Notes under the pieces: model-generated
Seen by the model: only the letters and a program-made list of their open reading frames with translations
What the model was told of the DNA's origin: nothing
Databases searched by the model: none
IMG/VR virus record: IMGVR_UViG_2547132274_000016
Location: 1-21,220 of that record
Origin: a virus
Lineage: Duplodnaviria; Heunggongvirae; Uroviricota; Caudoviricetes
Reading direction: 5' to 3' (one strand)
Length of the DNA: 21,220 bases
Made by a program: the position numbers and the translations under genes
In this document: piece after piece, positions 1-13,103 of the stretch
How the letters are laid out: every line of letters starts with the position of its first letter
Position numbering within the stretch: the stretch's first letter is position 1

Positions 1-900
1 TTACCTTAACAGCGGGCAATCTGGTGGTAGCCGGCAACGCAATGCTGCCGGAAGTATTTCGATATGAAAACGTTGTCCGCTTAACGGTTCGCCATCAAGA
101 TTAAAGGTGATTTCATGCGGCGCTTGTATATCGAACCATGCCGAAGCGCCATCAATAATATTCGGGTTTTCTTCGTCAGGTTTTAAGGTTGAGAAGAGAG
201 CTGGAAGAATTTCATCGCCGGTGAAAATACGCAGTTGTAACAAACCATCATTGATCAGCGCATTTGGGCACAGTTGTTGACCGCCACCGGCTTGACGCCC
301 GTTGCCAATACCAATAACCAGCGCATCGCCTTGCCAGTGAAAATTTTCACCACGGATTTCACAGCGATCCGGTTGCAGGGTATCCATGCGCATTAAGCCG
401 TGAATGATATAAGAGACGCCACCCAGCGCGGCTTTTAATTTCTCGGGTGTTTCTGTGGTGATGCGCGTCCCAAATCCGCCCGTCGCCATGTTGATAAAAC
501 AGGTTTGTTTGTTGACCTGCGCCATATCAATCGCAATAGCGTTACCAGCAATTGCCAGTTTAAGTGCCTTATCCAGCGCCTCAGGAATACCCACACTGGT
601 GGCAAAATCGTTCGCTGTACCTAGCGGCAATATCCCCAACGCAGGAATTTCATTGCCCTCACACTGAATCAACGCCGTGGAGACTTCATTAATAGTGCCA
701 TCGCCACCGCCGGCAATCACCGTTGCAACGCCAAGCTGGCGGGCTTCCTCAACAAAACGCGCAGCATCACCTTTCTCCCAGGTAACCCGCACATGGATAG
801 TCATTCCTTCCACACGCAGCAGCATAATTGCTTCGCGTAATGTTTCATTGTCAGCACTTTTGCCGTTAAGAATCAGTAAGCTGGCGGGAAAATCTGCCAT
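1..900 (-). CDS. yegS: Lipid kinase YegS (diacylglycerol-kinase family), complete host gene
   Basis: 299-aa ORF with glycine-rich GGDGT nucleotide-binding motif typical of the DAGK/YegS family; translation recognised as enterobacterial YegS; normal GC, flanks the prophage. Confidence 0.88.
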
Positions 901-1092: not shown

Positions 1093-2106
1093 TTACTCTA
1101 CTGTGGACACTGTGTGGACACTCTCGGCCTCAGTACCACCTCTTAGCGGATTAAGAGAAATGGCGTCCTGAAGGTACTCTGGCGCAAAATGAGCGTAAAC
1201 CATAGTTTGCTCAATCCGCGTGTGACCTAGTATCCGTTGTAGCGTGATAATACTTCCTCCATTAATCATGAAATGAGTGGCAAAGCTGTGCCTTAGTGCA
1301 TGTGTGGCTTGCCCCGTTGGCAAATCCGGTTTTATTGCTTTCATTGTTCGTCTGAAGCGAGGGTAATCAGCATCAGGGAATAAAAAACCTCGTTTGTTAT
1401 CCGCGATCATTTTGGCAACAGCCTCTGAGATCGGGACGGTGCGTGGTTTGTTTGTTTTCGTTTTAACAAACGTGACGCGGTTATGGATGATATTTTCTGC
1501 TTTCAAACGAGCTGCTTCTCCCCAACGTGCTCCAGTACTCAGGCAAAGAATCGCAATCTTTTTATTGTCGCCGTCAAGAGCAGCAAGCAGTAAGGCAATT
1601 TCTTCCTGCGTGAGATAGCCTGTGTCTGGTTTTTCCTCCTTAAGCCTTTTTGTCCCTCTGATAGGGTGCTCACCAAAGAATAACTCCGCTTCAATCAGGG
1701 CTGTAAACATGCCGCTAATACATGTTAAATCACGATTGATACTCGAAGGTTTAATACCCTGACTTCTTCGGGTGGCGCAGTACTGGCTGATAAGCGATTT
1801 CGTAATTTGAAATGCGCATGGGTCATTCGTTATTTTTGTGAAGATTTCAATTTTTCCAAGATTAGATTTCCCATGCTCTTCGTGTTTACCCTTTAAATCC
1901 CACCAGATCTGTGTCAGCTCCGACAGACGTCGCTTGTCTGTTGGTTTTGATAGCCATTCTTTATTGTGGTGGTTGTACAACGTGTATTTCTCGAAAGCGA
2001 CAGCTTCGCTTTTCTTATCAAACTTCCTACGGATGCGTTTTCCATTACGTCCAGTAGGGCGGATGTCCACTTCATATCGACCATCATCGAGTTTTTTGAT
2101 TGCCAT
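1093..2106 (-). CDS. int: Phage integrase, tyrosine recombinase (P2 Int-like)
   Basis: 337 aa; C-terminal catalytic region ...HALRHSFATHF...LGHTRIEQTMVYAHF with the conserved R, H-x-x-R and Y; adjacent to the att core. Confidence 0.95.
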   Translation of the reverse strand: MAIKKLDDGRYEVDIRPTGRNGKRIRRKFDKKSEAVAFEKYTLYNHHNKEWLSKPTDKRRLSELTQIWWDLKGKHEEHGKSNLGKIEIFTKITNDPCAFQITKSLISQYCATRRSQGIKPSSINRDLTCISGMFTALIEAELFFGEHPIRGTKRLKEEKPDTGYLTQEEIALLLAALDGDNKKIAILCLSTGARWGEAARLKAENIIHNRVTFVKTKTNKPRTVPISEAVAKMIADNKRGFLFPDADYPRFRRTMKAIKPDLPTGQATHALRHSFATHFMINGGSIITLQRILGHTRIEQTMVYAHFAPEYLQDAISLNPLRGGTEAESVHTVSTVE

Positions 2107-4403: not shown

Positions 4404-4675
4404 GTATTCGTATCGAAATTGGCGAACGTTATGTCGTTACCAGTGACAGCTTTCAGTTTATTCTCCACGAGAAAAAGAGAGCGGAAAGCGGTAAAAACGC
4501 CGGCCAGGAATGGCTGGCGGTGGTTGGTTATTACCCGAAATTAAGCCAGCTCGTTTCCGGCATGATGCATCACGATATTCTGACCGGAAGCGCAAAATCT
4601 TTTGCTGATTTAAACGCGCAGGTTGAGCAACTCAGCAAGCGTTGTTCAGAGGCTTTTGGCTCACATGGCCGTTAA
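4400..4675 (+). CDS. Small early hypothetical protein immediately upstream of A
   Basis: 91-aa ORF, 4-nt start overlap with previous gene, 3' end overlaps the A start. Confidence 0.5.
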   Translation: MSIRIEIGERYVVTSDSFQFILHEKKRAESGKNAGQEWLAVVGYYPKLSQLVSGMMHHDILTGSAKSFADLNAQVEQLSKRCSEAFGSHGR

Positions 4676-6950
4676 AGCCTCCGGGCGTTTTGTCCCTCCG
4701 TCAGCATTTGCCGCAGGCACCGGTAAGGCGTTTACCGGTGCTTATGCATGGAACGCGCCACGCGAGGCTGTCGGGCGCGAAAGACCCCTTACACGTGACG
4801 AGATGCGTCAGGTGCAAGGTGTTTTATCCACGATTAACCGCCTGCCTTACTTTTTGCGCTCGCTGTTTACTTCACGCTATGACTACATCCGGCGCAATAA
4901 AAGCCCGGTGCACGGGTTTTATTTCCTCACATCCACTTTTCAGCGTCGTTTATGGCCGCGCATTGAGCGTGTGAATCAGCGCCATGAAATGAACACCGAC
5001 GCGTCGTTGCTGTTTCTGGCAGAGCGTGACCACTATGCGCGCCTGCCGGGAATGAATGACAAGGAGCTGAAAAAGTTTGCTGCCCATATCTCATCGCAGC
5101 TTTTCATGATGTATGAGGAACTCTGCGATGCCTGGGTGGATGCGCATGGCGAAAAAGAATCGCTGTTTACGGATGAGGCGCAGGCACATCTGTATGGTCA
5201 TGTTGCTGGCGCTGCACGTGCTTTCAATATTTCCCCGCTTTACTGGAAAAAATACCGTAAAGGGCAGATGACCACGAGGCAGGCATATTCTGCCATTGCC
5301 CGCCTGTTTAACGATGAGTGGTGGACTCATCAGCTTAAAGGCCAGCGTATGCGCTGGCATGAGGCGTTACTGATTGCTGTCGGGGAGGTCAATAAAGACC
5401 GTTCTCCTTATGCCAGTAAACATGCCATTCGTGATGTGCGTGCGCGCCGCCAGGCAAATCTGGAATTTCTTAAATCGTGTGACCTTGAAAACAAGGAAAC
5501 CGGCGAGCGCATCGACCTTATCAGTAAGGTGATGGGCAGTATTTCTAATCCAGAAATTCGCCGGATGGAGCTGATGAACACCATCGCCGGTATTGAGCGT
5601 TACGCCGCCGCAGAGGGTGATGTGGGGATGTTTATCACGCTGACCGCGCCGTCAAAGTATCACCCGACACGTCAGGTCAGAAAAGGCGAAAGTAAAACCG
5701 TCCAGCTAAATCACGGCTGGAACGATGAGGCATTTAATCCAAAGGATGCGCAGCGTTATCTCTGCCGTATCTGGAGCCTGATGCGCACGGCATTCAAGGA
5801 TAATGATTTACAGGCCTACGGTTTGCGAGTCGTCGAGCCACACCACGACGGAACGCCGCACTGGCATATGATGCTTTTTTGTAATCCACGCCAGCGTAAC
5901 CAGATTATTGAAATCATGCGTCGCTATGCGCTCAAAGAGGATGGCGACGAAAGAGGAGCCGCGCGAAACCGTTTTCAGGCAAAACACCTTAACCGGGGCG
6001 GTGCTGCGGGATATATCGCGAAATACATCTCAAAAAACATCGACGGCTATGCACTGGATGGTCAGCTCGATAACGATACCGGCAGACCGCTGAAAGATAC
6101 TGCGGCGGCTGTTACCGCATGGGCGTCAACGTGGCGCATTCCGCAATTTAAAACGGTTGGTCTGCCGACAATGGGGGCTTACCGTGAACTACGCAAATTG
6201 CCTCGCGGCGTCAGCATTGCTGATGAGTTTGACGAGCGCGTCGAGGCTGCACGCGCCGCTGCAGACAGTGGTGATTTTGCGTTGTATATCAGCGCGCAGG
6301 GCGGGGCAAATGTCCCGCGCGATTGTCAGACTGTCAGGGTCGCCCGTAGCCCGTCGGATGACGTTAACGAGTACGAGGAAGAAGTCGAGAGAGTGGTCGG
6401 CATTTACGCGCCGCATCTCGGCGCGCGTCATATTCATATCACCAGAACGACGGACTGGCGCATTGTTCCGAAAGTGCCGGTCGTTGAGCCTTTGACTTTA
6501 AAAAGCGGCATCGCCGCGCCTCGGAGTCCTGTCAATAACTGTGGAAAGCTCACCGGTGGTGATACTTCGTTACCGGCTCCCACACCTTCTGAGCACGCCG
6601 CAGCAGTACTTAATCTGGTTGATGACGGTGTTATCGAATGGAATGACCAGGAGGTCGTGAAGGCGCTAAGGGGCGCATTAAAACACGGGCTGAGAACGCC
6701 AAATCGTCAGCAAAGAAACGGAAGCCCGTTAAAACCGCATGAAATTGCACCATCGGCCAGACTGACACGGTCGGAACGAATGCAAATTACCCGTATTCGC
6801 GTTGACCTCGCTCAGAACGGTATCAGGCCGCAGCGATGGGAGCTTGAGGCGCTGGCGCGTGGCGCGACCGTAAATTATGACGGGAAAAAATTCACGTATC
6901 CGGTCGCTGATGAGTGGCCGGGATTCTCAACAGTAATGGAGTGGACATGA
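4665..6950 (+). CDS. A: Replication initiation endonuclease A (rolling-circle nickase, P2 gpA-like)
   Basis: 761 aa from MAVKASGRF (track ORF starts 14 codons earlier); contains the HxH metal motif region ...EPHHDGTPHWHMMLF...; length equals P2 A. Confidence 0.9.
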   Translation: MAVKASGRFVPPSAFAAGTGKAFTGAYAWNAPREAVGRERPLTRDEMRQVQGVLSTINRLPYFLRSLFTSRYDYIRRNKSPVHGFYFLTSTFQRRLWPRIERVNQRHEMNTDASLLFLAERDHYARLPGMNDKELKKFAAHISSQLFMMYEELCDAWVDAHGEKESLFTDEAQAHLYGHVAGAARAFNISPLYWKKYRKGQMTTRQAYSAIARLFNDEWWTHQLKGQRMRWHEALLIAVGEVNKDRSPYASKHAIRDVRARRQANLEFLKSCDLENKETGERIDLISKVMGSISNPEIRRMELMNTIAGIERYAAAEGDVGMFITLTAPSKYHPTRQVRKGESKTVQLNHGWNDEAFNPKDAQRYLCRIWSLMRTAFKDNDLQAYGLRVVEPHHDGTPHWHMMLFCNPRQRNQIIEIMRRYALKEDGDERGAARNRFQAKHLNRGGAAGYIAKYISKNIDGYALDGQLDNDTGRPLKDTAAAVTAWASTWRIPQFKTVGLPTMGAYRELRKLPRGVSIADEFDERVEAARAAADSGDFALYISAQGGANVPRDCQTVRVARSPSDDVNEYEEEVERVVGIYAPHLGARHIHITRTTDWRIVPKVPVVEPLTLKSGIAAPRSPVNNCGKLTGGDTSLPAPTPSEHAAAVLNLVDDGVIEWNDQEVVKALRGALKHGLRTPNRQQRNGSPLKPHEIAPSARLTRSERMQITRIRVDLAQNGIRPQRWELEALARGATVNYDGKKFTYPVADEWPGFSTVMEWT

Positions 6951-7402
6951 TGGCAAAAATTCACGAGGTAAAGCTGCACGCAAAATATTTCGACCTTGTG
7001 CTGGAAGGAAAGAAACGCGCAGAGTTTCGGAAAAATGACCGTAATTATGAGCGCGGGGACACGTTGATTTTGCATGAATGGGTGCAGGGTGTGTACACGG
7101 GGCGAAAGGTTGAAGCCCGGATAACAGATGTTACTGACCTGTCAGACTGGCTGGAAGATTATGTATTGCTAAGTATTGAGCTGCTTAATACAGGCACATA
7201 TGAGATTGTGAACTGGAAAGAACTTAGTGAGCGTGGTCTGGTATTCAGAATTAATCATGAAATTATGCATCAGCTCGGCCTTGCTGTTATGTATGAACCA
7301 GAGACGGGGATGTCTGGCGGGGCAATGGTTGCCATGGATGGAGCATGGAACTATTCAGATGAACAGATGGAGCGTGCACAGCAAAACGGGTGGCTTGGAT
7401 AA
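6947..7402 (+). CDS. DUF3850/ASCH-like (PUA-fold) domain protein, cargo gene 1
   Basis: Start ATG overlaps the A stop (ATGA); N-terminal ~70 aa (KIHEVKLHAKYFDLVLEGKKRAEFRKNDRNYERGDTLILHEW) resembles ASCH/DUF3850 domains; assignment from motif memory only. Confidence 0.55.
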   Translation: MMAKIHEVKLHAKYFDLVLEGKKRAEFRKNDRNYERGDTLILHEWVQGVYTGRKVEARITDVTDLSDWLEDYVLLSIELLNTGTYEIVNWKELSERGLVFRINHEIMHQLGLAVMYEPETGMSGGAMVAMDGAWNYSDEQMERAQQNGWLG

Positions 7403-7608
7403 TGCACAGAATACCAGGCGAGATACCGCACCATAAAACTAAAAATATCAAGCTGATGGCTATTGTTCAGCGTTTACAGCGGATTATGGTCAACGAAAAT
7501 CTGACGCCAGATGAGCTAGTCGGGTGTGCCGAAATAGTCCGGGATAATTACGGGCGGTTTAACCATATCGGTCAATCAAGAGTTACGCCACCACCACGCA
7601 GACGATAG
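7402..7608 (+). CDS. Small hypothetical protein, cargo gene 2
   Basis: 68-aa ORF whose ATG overlaps the upstream TAA (TAATG); basic C-terminus (PPPRRR); no recognisable domain. Confidence 0.4.
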   Translation: MHRIPGEIPHHKTKNIKLMAIVQRLQRIMVNENLTPDELVGCAEIVRDNYGRFNHIGQSRVTPPPRRR

Positions 7609-7837
7609 AGAACGCCGCCAGTCGTGAAACTTGTTTTCAGGGCTGGCGGGGTTGAACAACGAGCGAAGCGAGGCGTTAGTTGACAGTCATATTTTTACTG
7701 CGTTGGTGCTGGTTTTTGACGGTTGAAAGGAGTTAGCTCGGAGAGCTAAAGCTAACAACTTACAAATATTCAAAAGTAAGCTTCCTGTTGCTAACATAAG
7801 GTCGATTTTTTATGTGGATGATGCAAAAAGGATAGCT

Positions 7838-8569
7838 ATGGATATTGTAATCGCTTTTCTATCACTCGCTTTTTTCGTTGCTTTTTTCATCGGGTTAATC
7901 AAGCCATCACTGGTGCGGATGCCAAACCGTAAACGTGCAAGTGCGGTTTATCTCGGAGGTGGTTTTGCATTGAGCATAATTGGTTCAATACTCTACCCAA
8001 CAGAAAAAAGCCAGCCAGTTGCTAAAACTGAAACAGCAACCGTAGCAGAACACCAGGCTCAAAAAACATTCGAATATACTGAAAAAACACTCAAGGAATA
8101 TCGGAACGAGCCAAAGAAGACTCGACACGATATTGTGAATAGTTACATTAACTTTAAGAAAGTGCCAGTCACCGCATCAGATGCATTTTATGCCTGCATG
8201 AGTGAGTATACATTTACCAAAGATGATGAGTTGAAACTCGGTGATGTTCTTGGGTGGTGCTTTAATGATTATGAAAATGACCCGAATTCACTAAACAATA
8301 AAATCAATCTTGATACATTTCAGAGCAATTTTAGTGGTTGGGATGGTTCTTATCGTCCATTGGAAAAACTAATTAAAGATAATATGAACGATGATTCATC
8401 TTATAAACATGTGTCAACGGTATATCATTTGGTTTTGAATAAAGACCCGCACGCCATTGTGAAAACCACATTTCGTGGCACTAATGCTTATGGAGGAGTA
8501 GTTAAACAGACTATTGCTGCGCGTGTCGACATCCGAACGGGCGAAGTCGTTTCAGTATTAGATAACTAA
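7838..8569 (+). CDS. Membrane-anchored hypothetical protein (two N-terminal TM helices plus ~175-aa soluble domain), cargo gene 3
   Basis: AAGGA RBS 5 nt before the ATG at 7838 (track ORF from GTG 7814); hydrophobic stretches IVIAFLSLAFFVAFFIGLI and AVYLGGGFALSIIGSIL; AT-rich codon usage unlike the phage backbone. Confidence 0.6.
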   Translation: MDIVIAFLSLAFFVAFFIGLIKPSLVRMPNRKRASAVYLGGGFALSIIGSILYPTEKSQPVAKTETATVAEHQAQKTFEYTEKTLKEYRNEPKKTRHDIVNSYINFKKVPVTASDAFYACMSEYTFTKDDELKLGDVLGWCFNDYENDPNSLNNKINLDTFQSNFSGWDGSYRPLEKLIKDNMNDDSSYKHVSTVYHLVLNKDPHAIVKTTFRGTNAYGGVVKQTIAARVDIRTGEVVSVLDN

Positions 8570-8572
8570 TCG

Positions 8573-8634
8573 TTGATGCCGTATTGACACTTGTTATACT
8601 AGTGGTGGAACGAGACTGTAATAGTCTGTTCCAC
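8573..8634 (+). promoter_or_regulatory. Candidate sigma70 promoter (TTGATG-16 bp-TGtTATACT) followed by a 30-bp imperfect palindrome (operator or 5'-UTR hairpin)
   Basis: -35-like TTGATG 8573..8578, extended -10 TGTTATACT 8592..8600; palindrome GTGGAACgagACTgtaatAGTctgTTCCAC 8605..8634 directly downstream; GAGGGA RBS at 8673. Confidence 0.35.
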
Positions 8635-8681
8635 TACAGGAGTAATTACCTTGACTGTAAGTTGCTTTTATTGAGGGAACT

Positions 8682-9971
8682 ATGAAGTTTAAGACTGAAT
8701 TGAGTCGAAAATTGCATGACTCGGTAGTGTTTGATTTGAAAAAAGACCTGGTAAAATTAGAGGGAAACCTAAAAAATACAGATTTGTTGTTGTCGTTTCA
8801 GTTCAAAATAATAAGGAATATAATTAGAAGTGAAAGGATGATCAAAGAATTAAAGTCTTTCTTAGGGGAACTAAAGGCAACAAAAAGAAAAGGTGGTTTA
8901 AAAAAAGAACAATCTAAACTTATTAAGGAAAATATTAAGAGTGTTGAGCAGGGTATTGATGATGTGAAATTTAAAATATATATCTTCAAAATGTTTGGTG
9001 ATAGTGTTGCTTTTTTGTATTTGGATAAGTTTGATATTAAGCATTTTTTTTATAATGTTGTGGATTACAGTCCCAAGGAGTCAGCGGGCTATATGGGAGG
9101 GAAGGATGGCTTAAAAGAAGAATGGGAATTGGTGAAGAAGGCCTGCAAGGCTGGTGTTCCTACGTTACTCAATGATATTACAATGAGTATGAGGCATGGT
9201 GATGTTTGTTTACTTGGTGAAGGTGCACCAGTACTGGTGGAGGTGAAATCAAGTCAAAATAAAAATGATCGTGTTGAACGTCAAAAAAATAACCTTAATA
9301 GACTAGCTGAATTTTTAGCAGAAGATAAAGCTGAAGATTTTAGAGGGATGCCATTAGTGTTAAGGAAAGAACTGTGTTTTTCAGAAGTTACATATAAAAA
9401 AGAATTTAATGAGCATCTGAATGTATGCAGGAAAAAAGGAATTTCATGGGTAAGGCTAGAAGATGGATTTTATGTGGTATCTAATCGTGGCTGTGATCTG
9501 GAAATAGCATTATCACAGTTGGATCTTAGAGGGAGGAAAATTGCACCTATATTTTTGAATGAATATAAAAATAATCAATTGTGGGTTCCTTTAACTCCGT
9601 TTGTTAATCTTATAAATGATGCGCGTGATTTGTGTGACTTTATAAATGGGGAGTTAACTATTCTCTGTGTTCTTGATTTGGATTGTTTTAAACAAATAGC
9701 TTTGAATGAAGGGTTTGAGCTTGTTTTTGTCGATGGTGAAGACTATTCGATGATATTTAAAGAATTTGGTAGCTCATTGATTTGGGGTGTGTCATGGCAA
9801 ATGATGCTTCGCACTCCTTTAGAAATGGTGTCAATGTCTTGGTTAATTAAAGATTCAATTGATAGATTTAAGCGTTTACAAAAGCAACATGCTGAGATGC
9901 AGCCTGTCACTGATGTTAATACATCCGAAACCTCCTTGTTTGAAAAATATAGGCCTCTTTTTACAAAGTAG
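8682..9971 (+). CDS. Hypothetical protein with PD-(D/E)xK-like nuclease motif, cargo gene 4
   Basis: 429 aa, strong RBS; K/E-rich N-terminal region, then GD(174)-x12-VLVE(187)VK(189) resembling the PD-(D/E)xK catalytic core; no P-loop; very AT-rich. Confidence 0.6.
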   Translation: MKFKTELSRKLHDSVVFDLKKDLVKLEGNLKNTDLLLSFQFKIIRNIIRSERMIKELKSFLGELKATKRKGGLKKEQSKLIKENIKSVEQGIDDVKFKIYIFKMFGDSVAFLYLDKFDIKHFFYNVVDYSPKESAGYMGGKDGLKEEWELVKKACKAGVPTLLNDITMSMRHGDVCLLGEGAPVLVEVKSSQNKNDRVERQKNNLNRLAEFLAEDKAEDFRGMPLVLRKELCFSEVTYKKEFNEHLNVCRKKGISWVRLEDGFYVVSNRGCDLEIALSQLDLRGRKIAPIFLNEYKNNQLWVPLTPFVNLINDARDLCDFINGELTILCVLDLDCFKQIALNEGFELVFVDGEDYSMIFKEFGSSLIWGVSWQMMLRTPLEMVSMSWLIKDSIDRFKRLQKQHAEMQPVTDVNTSETSLFEKYRPLFTK

Positions 9972-10108
9972 TCAGATGCTGTAGGTGTATATGCTATTGC
10001 ATTAATTTGCATGCAAAACAAGTAGAGGTAAAAACTCTTACAGGCTGCTTGGGGGATAGCTTTTGAATGCTAATGCATTTGCATTCAAATTGCCCCACGA
10101 AGCGGGCG

Positions 10109-10127
10109 GGCGAGGCGGGGAAAGCAC
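10109..10127. other. Candidate cos cohesive-end sequence (GGCGAGGCGGGGAAAGCAC)
   Basis: GC-rich non-coding stretch between cargo and Q, where cos lies in a P2 prophage; 19-mer matches my recollection of the P2 cohesive end (to be verified). Confidence 0.5.
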
Positions 10128-10269
10128 TGCGCGCTGGCGGTGGTGCTGATTTTATTTTTTCAGCGTCTGAGCGCGTCGTGGCAGCGTTTAGTCTGCCCGT
10201 TGGGGTGTTGGTGTGTCTGCGGGGTATTTTGTGCGGTGGTGAGCGTGTGAGGGCGTGATGACGGGATGT

Positions 10270-10291
10270 AAAAAAGCCGCCCGCAGGCGGC
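10270..10291 (-). terminator. Intrinsic terminator downstream of Q (end of P-Q operon)
   Basis: GC hairpin GCCGCC-cgca-GGCGGC (10276..10291) followed on the minus strand by a U-run (A-run 10270..10275 on plus strand), 5 nt after the Q stop. Confidence 0.55.
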
Positions 10292-10296
10292 GATGT

Positions 10297-11331
10297 TCAG
10301 CCGTTGTCAGTGTCCAGTGAGTAGTTTTTAAAGCGGATGACCTCCTGACCGAGCCAGCCGTTTATTTCCCGAATCCTGTCCTGTAACGGGATAAGCTCAT
10401 TGCGGACAAAGACCTTTGCCACTTTCTCAATATCGCCCAGTGACCCGACGTTCTCCGGCTTGCCGCCCATCAACTGAAAGGGGATGCGGTGCGCGTCCAG
10501 CAGGTCTGCGGCGCTGGCTTTTTTGATATTAAAAAAATCATCCTTCGTTGCCACTTCACTGAGCGGGATAATTTTAATGCCGTCGGCTTTCCCCTGTGGG
10601 GCATAGAGAAACAGATTTTTAAAGTTATTGCGGCCTTTCGACTTCACCATGTTTTCGCGGAGCATTTCGATATCGTTGCGATCCTGCACGGCATCGGTGA
10701 CGTACATGATGTATCCGGCATGTGCGCCGTTTTCGTAATACTTGCGGCGGAACAGCGTGGCTGATTCATTCAGCCAGGCAGAGTTAAGGGCGCTGAGATA
10801 TTCCGGCAGGCCGTACAGCTCCTGATTAATATCCGGCTCCAGCAGGTGAAACACGGAACCGGGCGCGAAGGCTGTCGGCTCGTTGAAGGACGGCACCCAC
10901 CAGTAAACATCCTCTTCCACACCACGGCGGGTATATTTTGCCGGTGAGATTTCCAGTCTGATGACCTTACCGGTGGTGCTGTAACGCTTTTCCAGAAACG
11001 CATTACCGAACACCAGAAAATCCAGCACAAAGCGGCTGAAATCCTACTGGGAAAGCCACGGATGCGGGATAAATGTCGAGGCCAGAATATTACGTTTGAC
11101 GTAAATCGGTGAGCTGTGATGTACGGCAGCACGCAGGCTTTTTGCCAGACCGGTAAAGCTGATCGGTGGCTCATACCATCTGCCGTTACTGATGCACTCG
11201 ACGTAATCCAGAATGTCACGGCGGTCGAGTACCGGCACCGGCTCACCAAAGGTGAATGCCTCCATTTTCGGGGCGCTGGCGGTCATTTTTTTTGCCGCAG
11301 GTTGCGGTGTTTTCCCTTTTTTCTTGCTCAT
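10297..11331 (-). pseudogene. Q: Portal protein gpQ interrupted by one in-frame TAG codon at 11044..11046
   Basis: Two ORFs (11044..11331, 95 aa; 10297..11028, 243 aa) are in the same frame and separated only by TAG; together ~344 codons as in P2 Q; reading through gives ...PWLSQ*DFSRFVLDFLVF... Confidence 0.6.
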
Positions 11332-13103
11332 CAGTAAAACTCCAGAATGGTGGATGTCAGCGGGGTGCTGATACCGGCGGTGAGTGGCTCATTTAACAGG
11401 GCGTGCATGGTCGCCCAGGCGAGGTCGGCGTGGCTGGCTTCCTCGCTGCGGCTGGCCTCATAGGTGGCGCTGCGTCCGCTGCTGGTCATGGTCTTGCGGA
11501 TAGCCATGAACGAGCTGGTGATGTCGGTGGCGCTGACGTCATATTCCAGACAGCCACGGCGGATAACGTCTTTTGCCTTGAGCACCATTGCGGTTTTCAT
11601 TTCCGGCGTGTAGCGGATATCGCGCGCGGCGGGATAGAACGAGCGCACGAGCTGGAACACGCCGACACCGAGGCCGGTGGCATCAATTCCGATGTATTCA
11701 ACGTTGTATTTTTCGGTGAGTTTGCGGATGGATTCCGCCTGGGTGGCAAAGTCCATGCCTTTCCACTGGTGACGCTCAAGTATTCTGAATTTGCCACCGG
11801 CCACCACCGGCGGTGCCAGCACCACGCATCCGGCACTGTCGCCACGGTGTGACGGGTCGTAACCAATCCATACCGGACGGGAGCCGAACGGATTGGCGGC
11901 AAACGGTGCGTAGTCTTCCCATTCTTCCAGTGTGTCGACCATGCAGCGTTGCAGCTCCTCGAACGGGAATACCGACGCCTTGTCGTCAACAAATTCACAC
12001 ATGAACAGGTTTTTAAAATCGTCGGCGCTGTTTTCGCGTTTGAGCTGCTCAATGTCGAACAGTGTGCAGCCACCTTTCAGGGCGTCCTCAATGGTGACAA
12101 TCTGCCGCCACTGGCCGTCCGCACAGAGAAGACCTCCGGCAAGGGCGTTATGACTGACGTCGATTTCCACGCGTTCGGCGGCGCTGGCGCGTCCCCGGTT
12201 GAACAGTTCACCCGACCAGAACGGGTAGGCGTCGTGCGCCAGCGTGGACGGGGTGGAGAAATAGGTCGAGCGCAGGTGACTCTGTGAGGCCATACCTGAT
12301 GCCACCTTACGCAGTACCTGAAAATTCGGGATCCAGAAAATCTCATCGACGTACAGGTCGCCGTTATGGCTCTGTGCGGTGTTGGAGTTGGTGCCGAGAA
12401 AAATCAGTTTTGCGCCGTTATTGCCCAGGACAATCGGGTCACCGGTCAGGTCAACGTCAACCAGCCGGGCAAAGGCGATGATGTATTCGCGGAACACATA
12501 CGCCTGCGTTTTACTGGCCGACAGAAAAATCTGGTTATGACCGGTTTTCAGGGCGCGCAGCAGCGCCTCGCGGGAAAAATAAAACGTCGCGCCAATCTGG
12601 CGGGATTTCAGGATATCGCGGATGCGGTGCTCAAGCCCGGCGCGATACCAGTGCAACTGATAGTCGAAAGACTGCTCAAAGAAAATCTGCTCCAGCTTTT
12701 CGATGGCCTCGTCACTGAAAAAATTCTTTTTCGGTTTGCGACGCGCGCCTTTGTTGCGGTTAGCGACGTTCGGATTAAGGTCTGCCTCGTTGCCGGTCTG
12801 ACTGTAACGGTTTACCCGTGCCAGTCGTTCAATCTGGCGTCCCAGCAGGTCAATTTCCTTGAAGTCACCGCCGGTTTTCTGCGGTTTGATGATGAGCTGG
12901 GTCAGCCGCGCTTCCAGACTCATTTCGACACGGCTGATGGGGGCAACACTGTCCCAGCCGTCGCGCTGTTTCCAGCTCTGCACCGTCGGGCGTTTCATCT
13001 GCAACATGGCGGCAATCTGCGGCACGGAAAACCCCTGCCAGTACAGCAGCGCCGCCTGACGACGCGGGTCGTGTAAAAGAGTGGTGTCTGTGGTGATGGT
13101 CAT
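11331..13103 (-). CDS. P: Terminase large (ATPase) subunit gpP
   Basis: 590 aa from the ATG at 13101..13103 (track ORF uses an upstream TTG); stop overlaps Q start; length and position as P2 P. Confidence 0.9.
   Translation of the reverse strand: MTITTDTTLLHDPRRQAALLYWQGFSVPQIAAMLQMKRPTVQSWKQRDGWDSVAPISRVEMSLEARLTQLIIKPQKTGGDFKEIDLLGRQIERLARVNRYSQTGNEADLNPNVANRNKGARRKPKKNFFSDEAIEKLEQIFFEQSFDYQLHWYRAGLEHRIRDILKSRQIGATFYFSREALLRALKTGHNQIFLSASKTQAYVFREYIIAFARLVDVDLTGDPIVLGNNGAKLIFLGTNSNTAQSHNGDLYVDEIFWIPNFQVLRKVASGMASQSHLRSTYFSTPSTLAHDAYPFWSGELFNRGRASAAERVEIDVSHNALAGGLLCADGQWRQIVTIEDALKGGCTLFDIEQLKRENSADDFKNLFMCEFVDDKASVFPFEELQRCMVDTLEEWEDYAPFAANPFGSRPVWIGYDPSHRGDSAGCVVLAPPVVAGGKFRILERHQWKGMDFATQAESIRKLTEKYNVEYIGIDATGLGVGVFQLVRSFYPAARDIRYTPEMKTAMVLKAKDVIRRGCLEYDVSATDITSSFMAIRKTMTSSGRSATYEASRSEEASHADLAWATMHALLNEPLTAGISTPLTSTILEFY

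What the first reader, a model, noticed from the sequence alone, without database searches (positions are those of the whole stretch)
7609..10060. Abrupt compositional island (visibly AT-rich) within an otherwise balanced-GC prophage backbone
By eye the DNA between the small A-coupled genes and cos is much more AT-rich than flanking phage genes, with Lys/Asn/Ile-rich proteins. This indicates recent horizontal acquisition from a low-GC source, the same signature described for P2 tin/old.
Basis: seen in the sequence. Interest (0 to 1): 0.5.

Follow-up and report, generated by a model that had tools for sequence, protein, structure and literature searches.

The report
AT-rich cargo slot of P2-like prophage
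The AT-rich stretch is real and is the known swappable cargo slot next to the packaging site of a P2-like prophage, here holding a membrane protein and an uncharacterised predicted nuclease that is a plausible, untested anti-phage defence gene.

Summary
Observation confirmed. Window 7609-10060 is 36.8% GC against 53.4% for the rest, lower than any other window of that size (minimum 44.2%, z = -3.5). The edges are sharp.

It is the gpA-gpQ/cos hotspot of a P2-like prophage, the slot that holds tin/old in P2. P2's own tin-old block is 33.9% against 51.6%.

The island is composite:
- **ORF1 (7838-8569)** is a two-pass membrane protein and an old resident. It co-diverges with the phage backbone yet stays AT-rich.
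- **The ORF2 cassette (about 8570-10060)** is swappable. In related phages the same position holds AbiP2, Lamassu, NsnA-like, HNH and unknown genes.

ORF2 (429 aa) matches no Pfam, PADLOC or NCBIfam model. It belongs to a family of about 1,400 representatives that always travels as a single gene. The family also occurs in the P4-satellite defence hotspot and beside known defence genes. Its model shows a coiled-coil hairpin, a minimal PD-(D/E)xK core (E147, D174, E187-x-K189) and an unmatched C-terminal domain.

My best reading is a single-gene nuclease defence candidate, untested. "Recent, from a low-GC donor" is only partly supported.

In passing, a conserved two-hairpin element with covariation marks the slot's left border.

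The parts
6914..7402 (+). DUF3850/ASCH + DUF7415 protein (162 aa), last-but-one gene of the early (A) operon. It is backbone rather than island, and marks the left context.
   Evidence: Pfam DUF3850 7.8e-18, DUF7415 4e-14, ASCH 6.3e-11. It is 96-98% identical in other E. coli P2-like phages. Rousset 2022 Table S5A lists the arrangement 'DUF3850/ASCH + hypothetical + hypothetical'.
7390..7608 (+). Small ORF (72 aa, phrog_11386). In other P2-like phages its homologue is flanked by two copies of the junction element, so it behaves as a small module itself.
   Evidence: PHROG hit 5.3e-39. Two element copies flank the homologue in L176, L211, L237, L191 and L230.
7611..7681 (+). Conserved element of about 71 nt with two hairpins, at the left border of the cargo slot. 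It begins 2-17 nt after the stop codon of whatever gene precedes it and always has the sense of the A operon.
   Evidence: blastn and nhmmer copies in 56 P2-like loci and at least 119 IMG/VR contigs. It always lies between A and Q. On 31 distinct copies: 21 pairs, 98.2% of cells paired, 7 pairs with compensatory changes (1 of 500 shuffles reach this), slid controls 25-52% paired. No Rfam family.
7838..8569 (+). ORF1, 243 aa (the ORF listing GTG start at 7814 gives 251 aa). Predicted topology: two transmembrane helices with a K/R-rich loop between them, then a C-terminal domain of about 180 aa with two invariant cysteines, predicted to face the periplasm. It is an old resident of the slot; function unknown.
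   Evidence: phrog_3403 1.3e-145. No Pfam, PADLOC, NCBIfam or PDB match. More than 161 clusters across Enterobacterales. Present in 261 E. coli genomes against 17 that also hold ORF2. Hydropathy, loop K+R = 5, invariant C120 and C141. Co-diverges with Q.
8570..10060 (+). The swappable ORF2 cassette: the stretch with no homology to sister P2-like phages that carry other cargo.
   Evidence: blastn breakpoints at 8565-8580 and 10059-10074 against L112, L115, L116, L119, L129, L138 and L140. Alternative occupants include AbiP2, LmuA+LmuB, NsnA-like, HNH, PDC-S64-like and unknowns.
8573..8600 (+). Promoter-like site TTGATG-16 nt-(TG)TATACT between ORF1 and ORF2. This is a consensus match only.
   Evidence: It is one of 10 matches against 7.6 expected in shuffles, so the scan alone is not significant. 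Its position and the extended -10 make it the best candidate.
8604..8633 (.). Imperfect palindrome GTGGAACgAGACTgtaatAGTCTgTTCCAC just after the promoter-like site. It could be an operator or a hairpin in the 5' leader.
   Evidence: Read from the sequence. Its right arm is part of inverted repeat I4.
8682..9971 (+). ORF2, 429 aa. Predicted domains: N-terminal antiparallel coiled-coil hairpin (about residues 13-113), a minimal PD-(D/E)xK nuclease-like core (about 140-230; E147, D174, E187, K189, Q201 invariant), and a C-terminal alpha/beta domain (about 240-405) with no structural match.
10062..10089 (.). 28-bp palindrome TTTGAATGCTAATG|CATTTGCATTCAAA at the point where backbone homology resumes, forming the right border of the slot.
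   Evidence: Inverted repeat I9, 93% complementary with no spacer. Homology resumes at 10059-10074.
10109..10127 (+). The cos cohesive-end 19-mer, identical to P2 cosL/cosR.

Best explanation
The island is the accessory-gene slot of a P2-like prophage integrated beside yegS/yegR. It lies between the early replication operon (A, the ASCH-domain ORF, the 72-aa ORF) and cos/portal Q, which is where P2 carries tin and old. It is not one acquisition but two juxtaposed modules.

(1) ORF1 is a long-standing resident of the slot. It is anchored in the inner membrane, and its C-terminal domain is predicted to face the periplasm. I infer with low confidence that it acts at the cell envelope, for example in superinfection exclusion or lysogenic conversion.

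(2) The 1.5-kb ORF2 cassette (about 8570-10060) is exchanged by recombination between a conserved left border and the conserved cos-proximal right border. It has its own promoter-like site.

ORF2 most likely works as a self-contained anti-phage nuclease. A PD-(D/E)xK active site (E147, D174, E187-x-K189) would cut nucleic acid. The coiled-coil hairpin would mediate oligomerisation, and the unmatched C-terminal domain would sense or gate activity.

Shown here: composition, borders, cassette allelism with known defence systems, single-gene mobility, conserved catalytic-type motif, and fold topology.

Inferred: nuclease activity, defence function, substrate, and ORF1's role.

Sub-confidences:
- the island is P2 hotspot cargo: about 0.95
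- ORF2 has a PD-(D/E)xK nuclease core: about 0.75
- ORF2 is an anti-phage defence gene: about 0.5
- ORF1 acts at the envelope or in exclusion: about 0.3
For: Context:
- Order of int, C, cox, B-like, A, ASCH, then the island, then cos, Q, P, O, N, M, with 99.6% identity to an annotated E. coli P2-like prophage next to yegS/yegR.
- The hotspot between gpA and gpQ is documented, with 1,650 arrangements (PMC9122126; PMC13586616).
- Composition matches P2 tin/old.

Borders and allelism:
- Homology breakpoints at the ORF1 stop and at about 10060.
- In 50 related contigs the segment between ORF1 and Q varies from 392 to 5042 nt, with at least 15 cassettes.
- These include AbiP2 (3e-162), LmuA and LmuB (1e-113, 7e-174), NsnA/PD-T4-2_A-like (3e-40), HNH and PtuB-like.

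ORF2 is autonomous:
- ORF1 is adjacent only in the near-identical E. coli copies, and is absent from about 100 other loci including 69-70% identical P2-like copies.
- No conserved neighbour was found.
- A 49% identical homologue sits between psu and int of an intact P4-like satellite, which is the P4 defence hotspot. A 50% identical homologue sits in a P4 remnant.
- Others lie next to a serine recombinase, an HTH-Peptidase_M78 gene, RES, AbiJ, QueC-like or UvrD-like genes.
- Of 132 genes within 2.5 kb, 4 are OLD/Gabija-type ATPases, 3 SMC_N, 2 SIR2_2, 2 QueC and 1 nSTAND. None of these appears in the top families of 132 control genes at least 5.5 kb away.

Nuclease core:
- Invariant E147, G-D174, E187-x-K189, R197 and Q201 across 25 sequences down to 25% identity.
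- Secondary-structure order alpha-beta-beta-beta-alpha-beta, with these residues at the canonical positions.
- Family size is 1375 representatives, all full length at about 390-460 aa.

Precedent: 13 of the 31 further validated E. coli defence systems in DefensePredictor carry a PD-(D/E)xK core with unrelated extra domains (PMC13092281).
Against: - No experiment exists; defence is inferred from position and neighbourhood only.
- The neighbourhood enrichment rests on small counts and on a crude ORF caller.
- Many hotspot genes are not defensive. About a quarter of P2-like phages carry partition genes there, and some carry toxins.
- It is unexplained how a constitutively encoded nuclease would spare the host and the prophage.
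- The promoter call is not above chance.
- I could not check the newest DefenseFinder models or the supplementary files of PMC13586616. The family may therefore already have been tested under a name I cannot see.
Confidence: 0.6

Rival explanations
1. ORF1 and ORF2 form one two-gene system: a membrane sensor or effector plus a nuclease, in the manner of membrane-protein-plus-partner defence systems.
For: They are adjacent, on the same strand and 112 nt apart. They occur together in 17 E. coli genomes and in Salmonella. Membrane proteins partner with cytoplasmic components in several hotspot systems (PMC9122126).
Against: - ORF1 occurs without ORF2 in more than 240 E. coli genomes and in 47 of 50 viral contigs. 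There it has other partners, complete known systems (Lamassu, AbiP2) or nothing at all, as in L151.
- ORF2 homologues lack ORF1 in about 100 loci.
- The recombination breakpoint falls exactly between the two genes.
- A promoter-like site separates them.
Confidence: 0.06
2. ORF2 is a nuclease that serves the mobile element rather than host immunity. It might be a structure-specific resolvase or recombination nuclease, an anti-defence factor, or a selfish addiction or homing-type nuclease.
For: The best structural matches are Holliday-junction resolvases (Hjc) and VRR-NUC. It is carried by phages, satellites and integrative elements. Anti-defence genes do occur in some P2-like phages.
Against: - Some copies are solitary chromosomal genes among housekeeping genes with no mobile-element genes nearby, for example L010.
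- It is dispensable and swapped for bona fide defence systems at the same site.
- P2 replication and packaging need no such gene; it is absent from P2 itself.
- Neighbours are enriched for defence genes rather than recombination genes.
Confidence: 0.17
3. ORF2 is an orphan restriction-type endonuclease: a Type IV modification-dependent enzyme, or a Type II-like enzyme without a methylase. It would cut incoming DNA directly, with no sensing or abortive step.
Confidence: 0.12
4. The island is simply a recent import from a low-GC bacterium that has not yet ameliorated. Its low GC would carry no functional meaning.
For: GC is 36.8% against 53.4% with sharp edges. The ORF2 cassette is rare and nearly identical between genera.
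Against: - ORF1 has stayed in this slot while diverging to 62% identity and is still AT-rich.
- ORF2 relatives are AT-richer than their surroundings in 91% of 102 loci across phyla.
- All alternative cassettes in the slot are AT-rich, at 0.35-0.47.
- P2's fun(Z) and orf30 show the same composition at other slots.
Confidence: 0.1

Closest known systems
P2 old-tin locus / the gpA-gpQ defence hotspot of P2-like phages (Rousset et al. 2022, PMC9122126; Moura de Sousa et al. 2026, PMC13586616)
   Same: Same position between the replication gene A and cos/portal Q. Same AT-rich signature (P2 block 33.9% against 51.6%). Same behaviour as a rapidly swapped accessory cassette. Allelic with known defence systems.
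   Different: The genes are unrelated to Old (ABC ATPase-TOPRIM) and Tin, with no PADLOC hit. They are on the + strand, co-directional with A, whereas old and tin are transcribed from the cos side. A resident gene (ORF1) and a structured border element are present here but absent from P2 itself.
Single-protein defence nucleases with a PD-(D/E)xK core plus unrelated accessory domains (for example Shedu SduA, and the DS-series proteins of DefensePredictor, PMC13092281)
   Same: One polypeptide of about 400 aa. A conserved D...(D/E)xK core embedded between lineage-specific domains. Carried on prophages and in defence neighbourhoods.
   Different: No sequence match to any PADLOC model, including Shedu. 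The coiled-coil hairpin and the C-terminal domain have no counterpart that I could find. No phenotype is known.
Archaeal and phage Holliday-junction resolvases Hjc (PDB 1hh1, 1ob8, 7bgs)
   Different: Hjc is a stand-alone domain of about 120-140 aa. ORF2 is three times larger, the similarity is marginal, and only 54-70 residues align.
Structured 3' cassette-end repeats (integron attC; REP/BIME-type extragenic palindromes), compared with the 71-nt border element
   Same: A conserved imperfect palindrome directly after stop codons. It is repeated between shuffled gene modules, and its structure is conserved through compensatory changes.
   Different: No integron integrase is present, there is no resemblance to REP consensus sequences, and no Rfam family matches. 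It is not found after every cassette; none follows ORF1 or ORF2 in this window. Function is untested.

Membership tests
P2-like gpA-gpQ (old/tin) accessory hotspot cargo | Located between replication gene A and cos/portal gene Q of a P2-like phage | tested here: met
   A at 4623-6950, cos 19-mer at 10109-10127, Q on the minus strand from 10297. Synteny with annotated prophage NZ_CP151026 and with P2 AF063097.
P2-like gpA-gpQ (old/tin) accessory hotspot cargo | Content varies between otherwise closely related phages | tested here: met
   At least 15 alternative cassettes lie between ORF1 and Q in 50 contigs whose A and Q are 95-99% identical. The breakpoints are mapped.
P2-like gpA-gpQ (old/tin) accessory hotspot cargo | Confers anti-phage protection or another lysogenic-conversion phenotype | not testable with these tools
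   This needs plaque assays. The arrangement is listed but not among those reported as tested in Rousset 2022.
PD-(D/E)xK nuclease superfamily (ORF2 core) | Conserved acidic/lysine catalytic signature D...(D/E)-x-K, usually with an upstream Glu | tested here: met
   E147, D174, E187 and K189 are invariant in 25 sequences down to 25% identity.
PD-(D/E)xK nuclease superfamily (ORF2 core) | alpha-beta-beta-beta-alpha-beta core with the motif residues on alpha1, beta2 and beta3 | tested here: met
   DSSP of the AF2 model: H142-156, E161-163, E175-177, E184-186, H196-214, E216-220. I could not inspect coordinates, so active-site geometry is unverified.
PD-(D/E)xK nuclease superfamily (ORF2 core) | Significant structural or profile similarity to established members | tested here: inconclusive
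PD-(D/E)xK nuclease superfamily (ORF2 core) | Metal-dependent nuclease activity | not testable with these tools
   Biochemistry is required.
Any catalogued defence system (PADLOC-DB v2.0.0, including Old, Shedu, PD-T4/PD-Lambda, Kiwa) | HMM match to a component model | tested here: not met
   No family matches ORF1 or ORF2 at E <= 0.1. Newer catalogues could not be searched.
Two-gene ORF1+ORF2 system | Conserved co-occurrence of the two genes across lineages | tested here: not met
   They co-occur only in near-identical copies: 17 of 261 E. coli genomes, and L092, L093, L114, L133.
Integron-type cassette array (for the 71-nt element) | Structured imperfect-palindrome site at the 3' end of each cassette, plus an IntI-type integrase and attI | tested here: not met
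   The element follows stop codons and flanks some modules. However, ORF1 and ORF2 in this window lack one. No IntI-like gene is present; the only recombinase is the P2-type integrase at 1093-2106.

The most novel reading that the evidence does not exclude
The P2-like hotspot is organised as an array of 'gene plus 3' structured element' modules. The conserved 71-nt two-hairpin element, together with the palindrome-bearing cos flank, would be the actual device that lets cassettes such as the ORF2 nuclease be shuffled, permuted and replaced. It might work as a recombination anchor or site, or as an insulating terminator or processing signal that makes each cargo gene plug-and-play.

That would supply a mechanism for the cassette turnover that PMC13586616 describes as unexplained. 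In the same reading, ORF2 founds a new single-gene nuclease defence family shared by the P2 and P4 hotspots.
Probability: 0.15. Interest if true: 0.7.

Novelty: new member of a known kind. Interest (0 to 1): 0.42.

Why it matters
The compositional island itself is textbook: it is the P2 old/tin hotspot, already mined for defence systems.

What is new is the content.
- ORF2 represents a sizeable, phylogenetically broad protein family (about 1,400 representatives at 50% clustering). It has no Pfam, NCBIfam or PADLOC model.
[quoted passage not shown] That makes it a concrete, cheap candidate for validation as a new single-gene defence system.
- It is a counter-example worth checking against the report that P2 and P4 rarely share defence genes.
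- ORF1 is an orphan envelope protein present in about 5% of complete E. coli genomes.
- The covarying border element offers a testable handle on how cassettes are exchanged at this hotspot.

Tried and rejected
- **Family libraries.** Pfam, PADLOC, NCBIfam and PDB-sequence searches of ORF1 and ORF2, as single sequences and as profiles, found nothing significant. PHROGs gave only 'unknown function' families.
- **Conserved operon partner of ORF2.** I clustered plus or minus 3 neighbours in about 100 loci; only integrases recur.
- **Literature by accession.** WP_000669738, WP_152071463 and WP_000355825 give no paper. ORF1's accession appears only in Rousset's Table S5A as 'hypothetical'. There are no hits in the DefensePredictor supplements, and the supplements of PMC13586616 are not held.
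- **The 'Bandua' system.** I tested whether the 457-aa neighbour of the P4 homologue is a kinase, which would link it to 'Bandua'. It has no Pfam, NCBIfam or PDB match, so the question stays open.
- **Rfam on 7000-10500.** Only a chance-level hit.
- **Promoter and terminator scan.** Counts do not exceed the shuffles.
- **A correction.** I first noted that the border element occurs in P2 itself. nhmmer on AF063097 shows it does not.
- **A single acquisition event.** Rejected, because the homology breakpoint splits the island.
Full report

Yes. The window as a whole is 51.5% GC. The stretch 7609-10060 is 36.8% and the remainder 53.4%. No other 2452-bp window falls below 44.2% (mean 53.6%, sd 4.8%, z = -3.5).

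The right edge is abrupt: 100-bp windows rise from 0.37-0.39 to 0.59-0.63 within about 100 bp around 10050-10150. The left edge lies near 7700-7750.

Third-codon-position GC is 0.34 for ORF1 and 0.30 for ORF2, against 0.55 for gene A and 0.70 for the capsid gene.

FYMINK is 33-34% against 19-31% elsewhere, and GARP 16-20% against 22-36%.

**2. Where are we?**

The window is a P2-like (Peduovirus) prophage next to yegS/yegR. The order is:
- YegS (1-900, minus strand)
- integrase (1093-2106, minus strand)
- repressor, cox and the early genes
- replication endonuclease A (4623-6950)
- a DUF3850/ASCH protein (6914-7402)
- a 72-aa ORF (7390-7608)
- the island
- the cos 19-mer (10109-10127)
- portal Q, terminase P, scaffold O, capsid N and the late genes

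This rests.

The interval between gpA and gpQ is the documented defence and accessory hotspot of P2-like phages, the one that holds old and tin in P2 (PMC9122126; PMC13586616).

In P2 (AF063097) tin is 32.9% GC, old 34.8% and the block 33.9%, against 51.6% for the rest. P2's other morons, fun(Z) and orf30, are 32.8% and 34.0%. So the signature is the same one.

**3. The island is two modules, not one.**

*Distribution.* Megablast against 5,426 complete E. coli genomes finds the ORF1 part in 261 genomes but ORF1 plus ORF2 in only 17. Sequenced phages carry ORF1 with other downstream genes.

*Position of ORF1.* In 50 IMG/VR P2-like contigs ORF1 always sits between the A side and Q. This includes a divergent lineage whose A protein is only 36% identical. 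ORF1 identity (62-98%) tracks Q identity (72-99%), and ORF1 is AT-rich everywhere at 0.375-0.46. ORF1 is therefore an old resident.

*The variable segment.* The segment from the ORF1 stop to the Q stop varies from 392 nt (nothing but cos, L151) to 5,042 nt and holds at least 15 unrelated cassettes.

*Breakpoints.* blastn places the loss of homology at 8565-8580, the ORF1 stop, and its return at 10059-10074. The ORF2 cassette is thus about 8570-10060.

*Occupants of the same position in sister phages* (PADLOC):
- AbiP2 reverse transcriptase (3e-162)
- Lamassu LmuA and LmuB (1e-113, 7e-174), with an ABC-3C middle component between them (Pfam)
- an NsnA/PD-T4-2_A-like DUF262 protein (3e-40)
- HNH and PtuB-like proteins
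- a PDC-S64-like protein
- several unknowns

All these cassettes are AT-rich, at 0.35-0.47.

**4. ORF2.**

*No named family.* ORF2 is 429 aa and has no Pfam, PADLOC or NCBIfam model. It matches only phrog_14906, of unknown function.

*Family size.* The word-indexed search found 25 clusters, all 'hypothetical'. An exhaustive profile search found 1,375 representatives at E <= 1e-3 and 813 at E <= 1e-10. Nearly all of the 150 best-scoring ones listed are about 390-460 aa and match over most of their length, so the architecture is fixed.

*Taxonomic spread.* Relatives occur in 89 GTDB species. These cover Proteobacteria, Acidobacteriota, Chloroflexota, Bacteroidota, Planctomycetota and others, plus 20 viral contigs.

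*Structure model.* The AlphaFold model is confident (pLDDT 89.5, pTM 0.89). It shows:
- a long antiparallel helical hairpin (residues 13-113)
- an alpha/beta core (about 140-230)
- a second alpha/beta domain (about 240-405)

*Nuclease-type core.* The invariant residues are E147, G-D174, E187-x-K189, R197 and Q201. They fall on alpha1, the start of beta2, beta3 and alpha2 of an alpha-beta-beta-beta-alpha-beta unit. That is the PD-(D/E)xK arrangement (established knowledge of that superfamily).

*Strength of the support.* Independent support is only moderate:
- Foldseek against PDB is empty.
- A few family members give weak Pfam hits to PDDEXK_9 (E 0.0022), Hjc and NOV_C.
- The C-terminal domain has no match.

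**5. ORF2 travels alone and keeps defensive company.**

ORF1 is next to ORF2 only in the near-identical enterobacterial copies. The 69-70% identical P2-like copies (L094, L095) and all other loci lack it. Clustering of plus or minus 3 neighbours finds no conserved partner; the only recurrent neighbour is an integrase.

Informative contexts:
- a 49% identical homologue between psu and int of an intact P4-like satellite, exactly the P4 defence hotspot, beside a 457-aa unknown gene
- a 50% identical homologue in a decayed P4 remnant of Pluralibacter
- a copy beside a large serine recombinase in Vibrio cholerae
- a copy directly downstream of an HTH-Peptidase_M78 gene in Ramlibacter
- a solitary copy among housekeeping genes in an alphaproteobacterium
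- same-strand upstream genes with RES, AbiJ_NTD4, QueC-like, UvrD-like, integrase or P2 gpD domains

In a random sample of 132 genes within 2.5 kb, 4 are OLD/Gabija/PARIS-type ATPases, 3 SMC_N, 2 SIR2_2, 2 OLD-TOPRIM, 2 QueC-like and 1 nSTAND. None of these is among the top families of 132 control genes at least 5.5 kb away. Integrases are equally common in both sets. The numbers are small and the ORF calls crude, so I treat this as supportive only.

**6. What low GC means here.**

ORF2 relatives are AT-richer than their flanks in 91% of 102 loci, with a median difference of -11 GC points. This holds in hosts ranging from Francisella-like to 70% GC genomes. ORF1 has kept its low GC through long residence.

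Low GC therefore looks like a standing property of this cargo class, not evidence of a recent low-GC donor. This fits what is generally known of defence and accessory genes and of P2's other morons.

The ORF2 cassette itself does look recently spread. Copies at least 97% identical occur in E. coli, Salmonella (one protein sequence on 612 contigs) and Cronobacter.

**7. ORF1.**

ORF1 is 243 aa from the ATG at 7838. It has a hydrophobic helix at residues 1-21, a loop with five K/R and no acidic residue, and a second helix at about 34-53. A conserved domain of about 180 aa follows, with two invariant cysteines, C120 and C141.

By the positive-inside rule the loop is cytoplasmic and the C-terminal domain periplasmic. 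The invariant cysteine pair fits a disulphide. Both points are inference.

There is no match in Pfam, PDB sequences, PADLOC or NCBIfam. An envelope role such as superinfection exclusion or lysogenic conversion is my best guess, at about 0.3.

**8. Mechanism and rivals.**

Most likely, ORF2 is a self-contained nuclease-based anti-phage protein expressed from the cassette. A promoter-like TTGATG-16-TGtTATACT lies at 8573-8600, followed by a palindrome at 8604-8633. The scan as a whole is not above chance.

I would assign the hairpin to oligomerisation and the C-terminal domain to sensing or gating. The Hjc/VRR-NUC resemblance hints at branched or structured DNA as substrate, but that is speculation.

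Rivals:
- a joint ORF1-ORF2 system, essentially excluded by the distribution
- a nuclease serving the mobile element (resolvase, anti-defence or selfish)
- an orphan Type IV or Type II-like restriction enzyme
- the plain 'unameliorated import' reading

**9. Comparison with the known, and novelty.**

The island as such is already known biology: the P2 old/tin hotspot. The specific cargo is not catalogued. Rousset's Table S5A lists 'DUF3850/ASCH + hypothetical + hypothetical' with ORF1's accession, and this arrangement is not among the systems reported as tested.

ORF2 accessions appear in none of the texts I could search. I could not see the supplementary data of the 2026 P2/P4 study, which validated several unnamed P4 hotspot systems.

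I file the finding as a new, candidate member of a known kind: hotspot-borne single-gene nuclease defence.

**10. Noticed on the way.**

A 71-nt element at 7611-7681 recurs in at least 119 P2-like contigs. It always lies between A and Q and has the sense of A. It starts 2-17 nt after the stop codon of the gene before it.

On 31 distinct copies it folds into two hairpins:
- 21 pairs, with 98.2% of cells paired
- 7 pairs with compensatory double changes (reached by 1 of 500 shuffles)
- a covariation score of 0.240 against 0.162 in shuffles
- 25-52% paired when partners are slid
- many G-U pairs on the + strand

In 'empty' hotspots it lies about 418 nt from the Q stop. Where cargo is present, the cargo sits between the element and cos. 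Two copies can flank ORF1 or the 72-aa ORF, and the order of those two genes is permuted in L230.

It is absent from canonical P2 and from the P4 loci. It has no Rfam family and is not followed by a U-tract. It may be a terminator or stabiliser of the early operon, a homology anchor for cassette exchange, or both. This is untested.

Noticed in passing
window 7611-7681 (+); also L112 5774-5844 and 6746-6817, L176 6283-6354 and 6688-6759, and many other loci: A conserved element of about 71 nt with two hairpins and good covariation support marks the left border of the P2-like cargo slot. It directly follows stop codons and sometimes flanks small gene modules on both sides. It has no Rfam family and is absent from canonical P2 and from the P4 loci.
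   Followed up: partly
window 10062-10089: A 28-bp near-perfect palindrome, TTTGAATGCTAATG|CATTTGCATTCAAA, lies exactly where backbone homology resumes to the right of the cassette, about 20 nt before the conserved cos-proximal sequence.
   Followed up: no
window 8573-8633: An extended -10 promoter-like site (TTGATG-16-TGtTATACT) is followed at once by the imperfect palindrome GTGGAACgAGACTgtaatAGTCTgTTCCAC upstream of ORF2. This upstream region is not conserved in the 70% identical homologues L094 and L095.
   Followed up: partly
L162 7001-8293 and L163 1766-3058 (P4-like satellites); L006-L008 and L012 (Pluralibacter remnant): ORF2 homologues (49-50% identity) sit in the psu-int defence hotspot of P4-like satellites, next to a 457-aa gene with no detectable domain. 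So the same family is used by both the P2 and the P4 hotspots, although a 2026 study reports that the two almost never exchange defence genes.
   Followed up: partly
L116 6843-7622 (cassette 'c0', 260 aa; the family is counted 26 times across the 50 contigs, some genes split into fragments) and L112 6841-7500 ('c3', 220 aa; 10 loci): The commonest occupants of the variable position next to ORF1 are two further orphan proteins. One has a C-terminal and the other an N-terminal hydrophobic segment, and neither has a Pfam or PADLOC match.
   Followed up: partly
L230 2470-3946; compare window 7390-8569: The order of ORF1 and the 72-aa ORF is permuted between phages. In the window it is small ORF, element, ORF1. 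In L230 it is ORF1, element, small ORF, element. This suggests module shuffling through the repeated element.
   Followed up: partly
window 6914-7402: The ASCH/DUF3850 + DUF7415 protein overlaps the end of gene A. It gives a faint PADLOC hit to the candidate PDC-M11B (E 0.024) and matches PHROGs annotated as RNA-binding protein. It is conserved backbone in the E. coli lineage but absent or very divergent in the other lineage.
   Followed up: no
L004 (NZ_CP151026) 7742-11342; hit H17 (NZ_AP027532): In the closest complete-genome relative an IS3-family element splits gene A, so that prophage is probably defective. In another strain an IS3 element interrupts the island itself.
   Followed up: no
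L005 6771-9290 (Ramlibacter): An ORF2 homologue lies immediately downstream (a gap of 18 nt by the called genes, 3 nt by my ORF caller) of an HTH_3 + Peptidase_M78 (ImmA/IrrE-type) gene. This is a possible regulator-effector pairing, seen only once.
   Followed up: no
window 8498-8515 and 8620-8637: An 18-nt stretch inside the 3' end of ORF1 is 89% complementary to the right arm of the palindrome upstream of ORF2. This may be chance.
   Followed up: no
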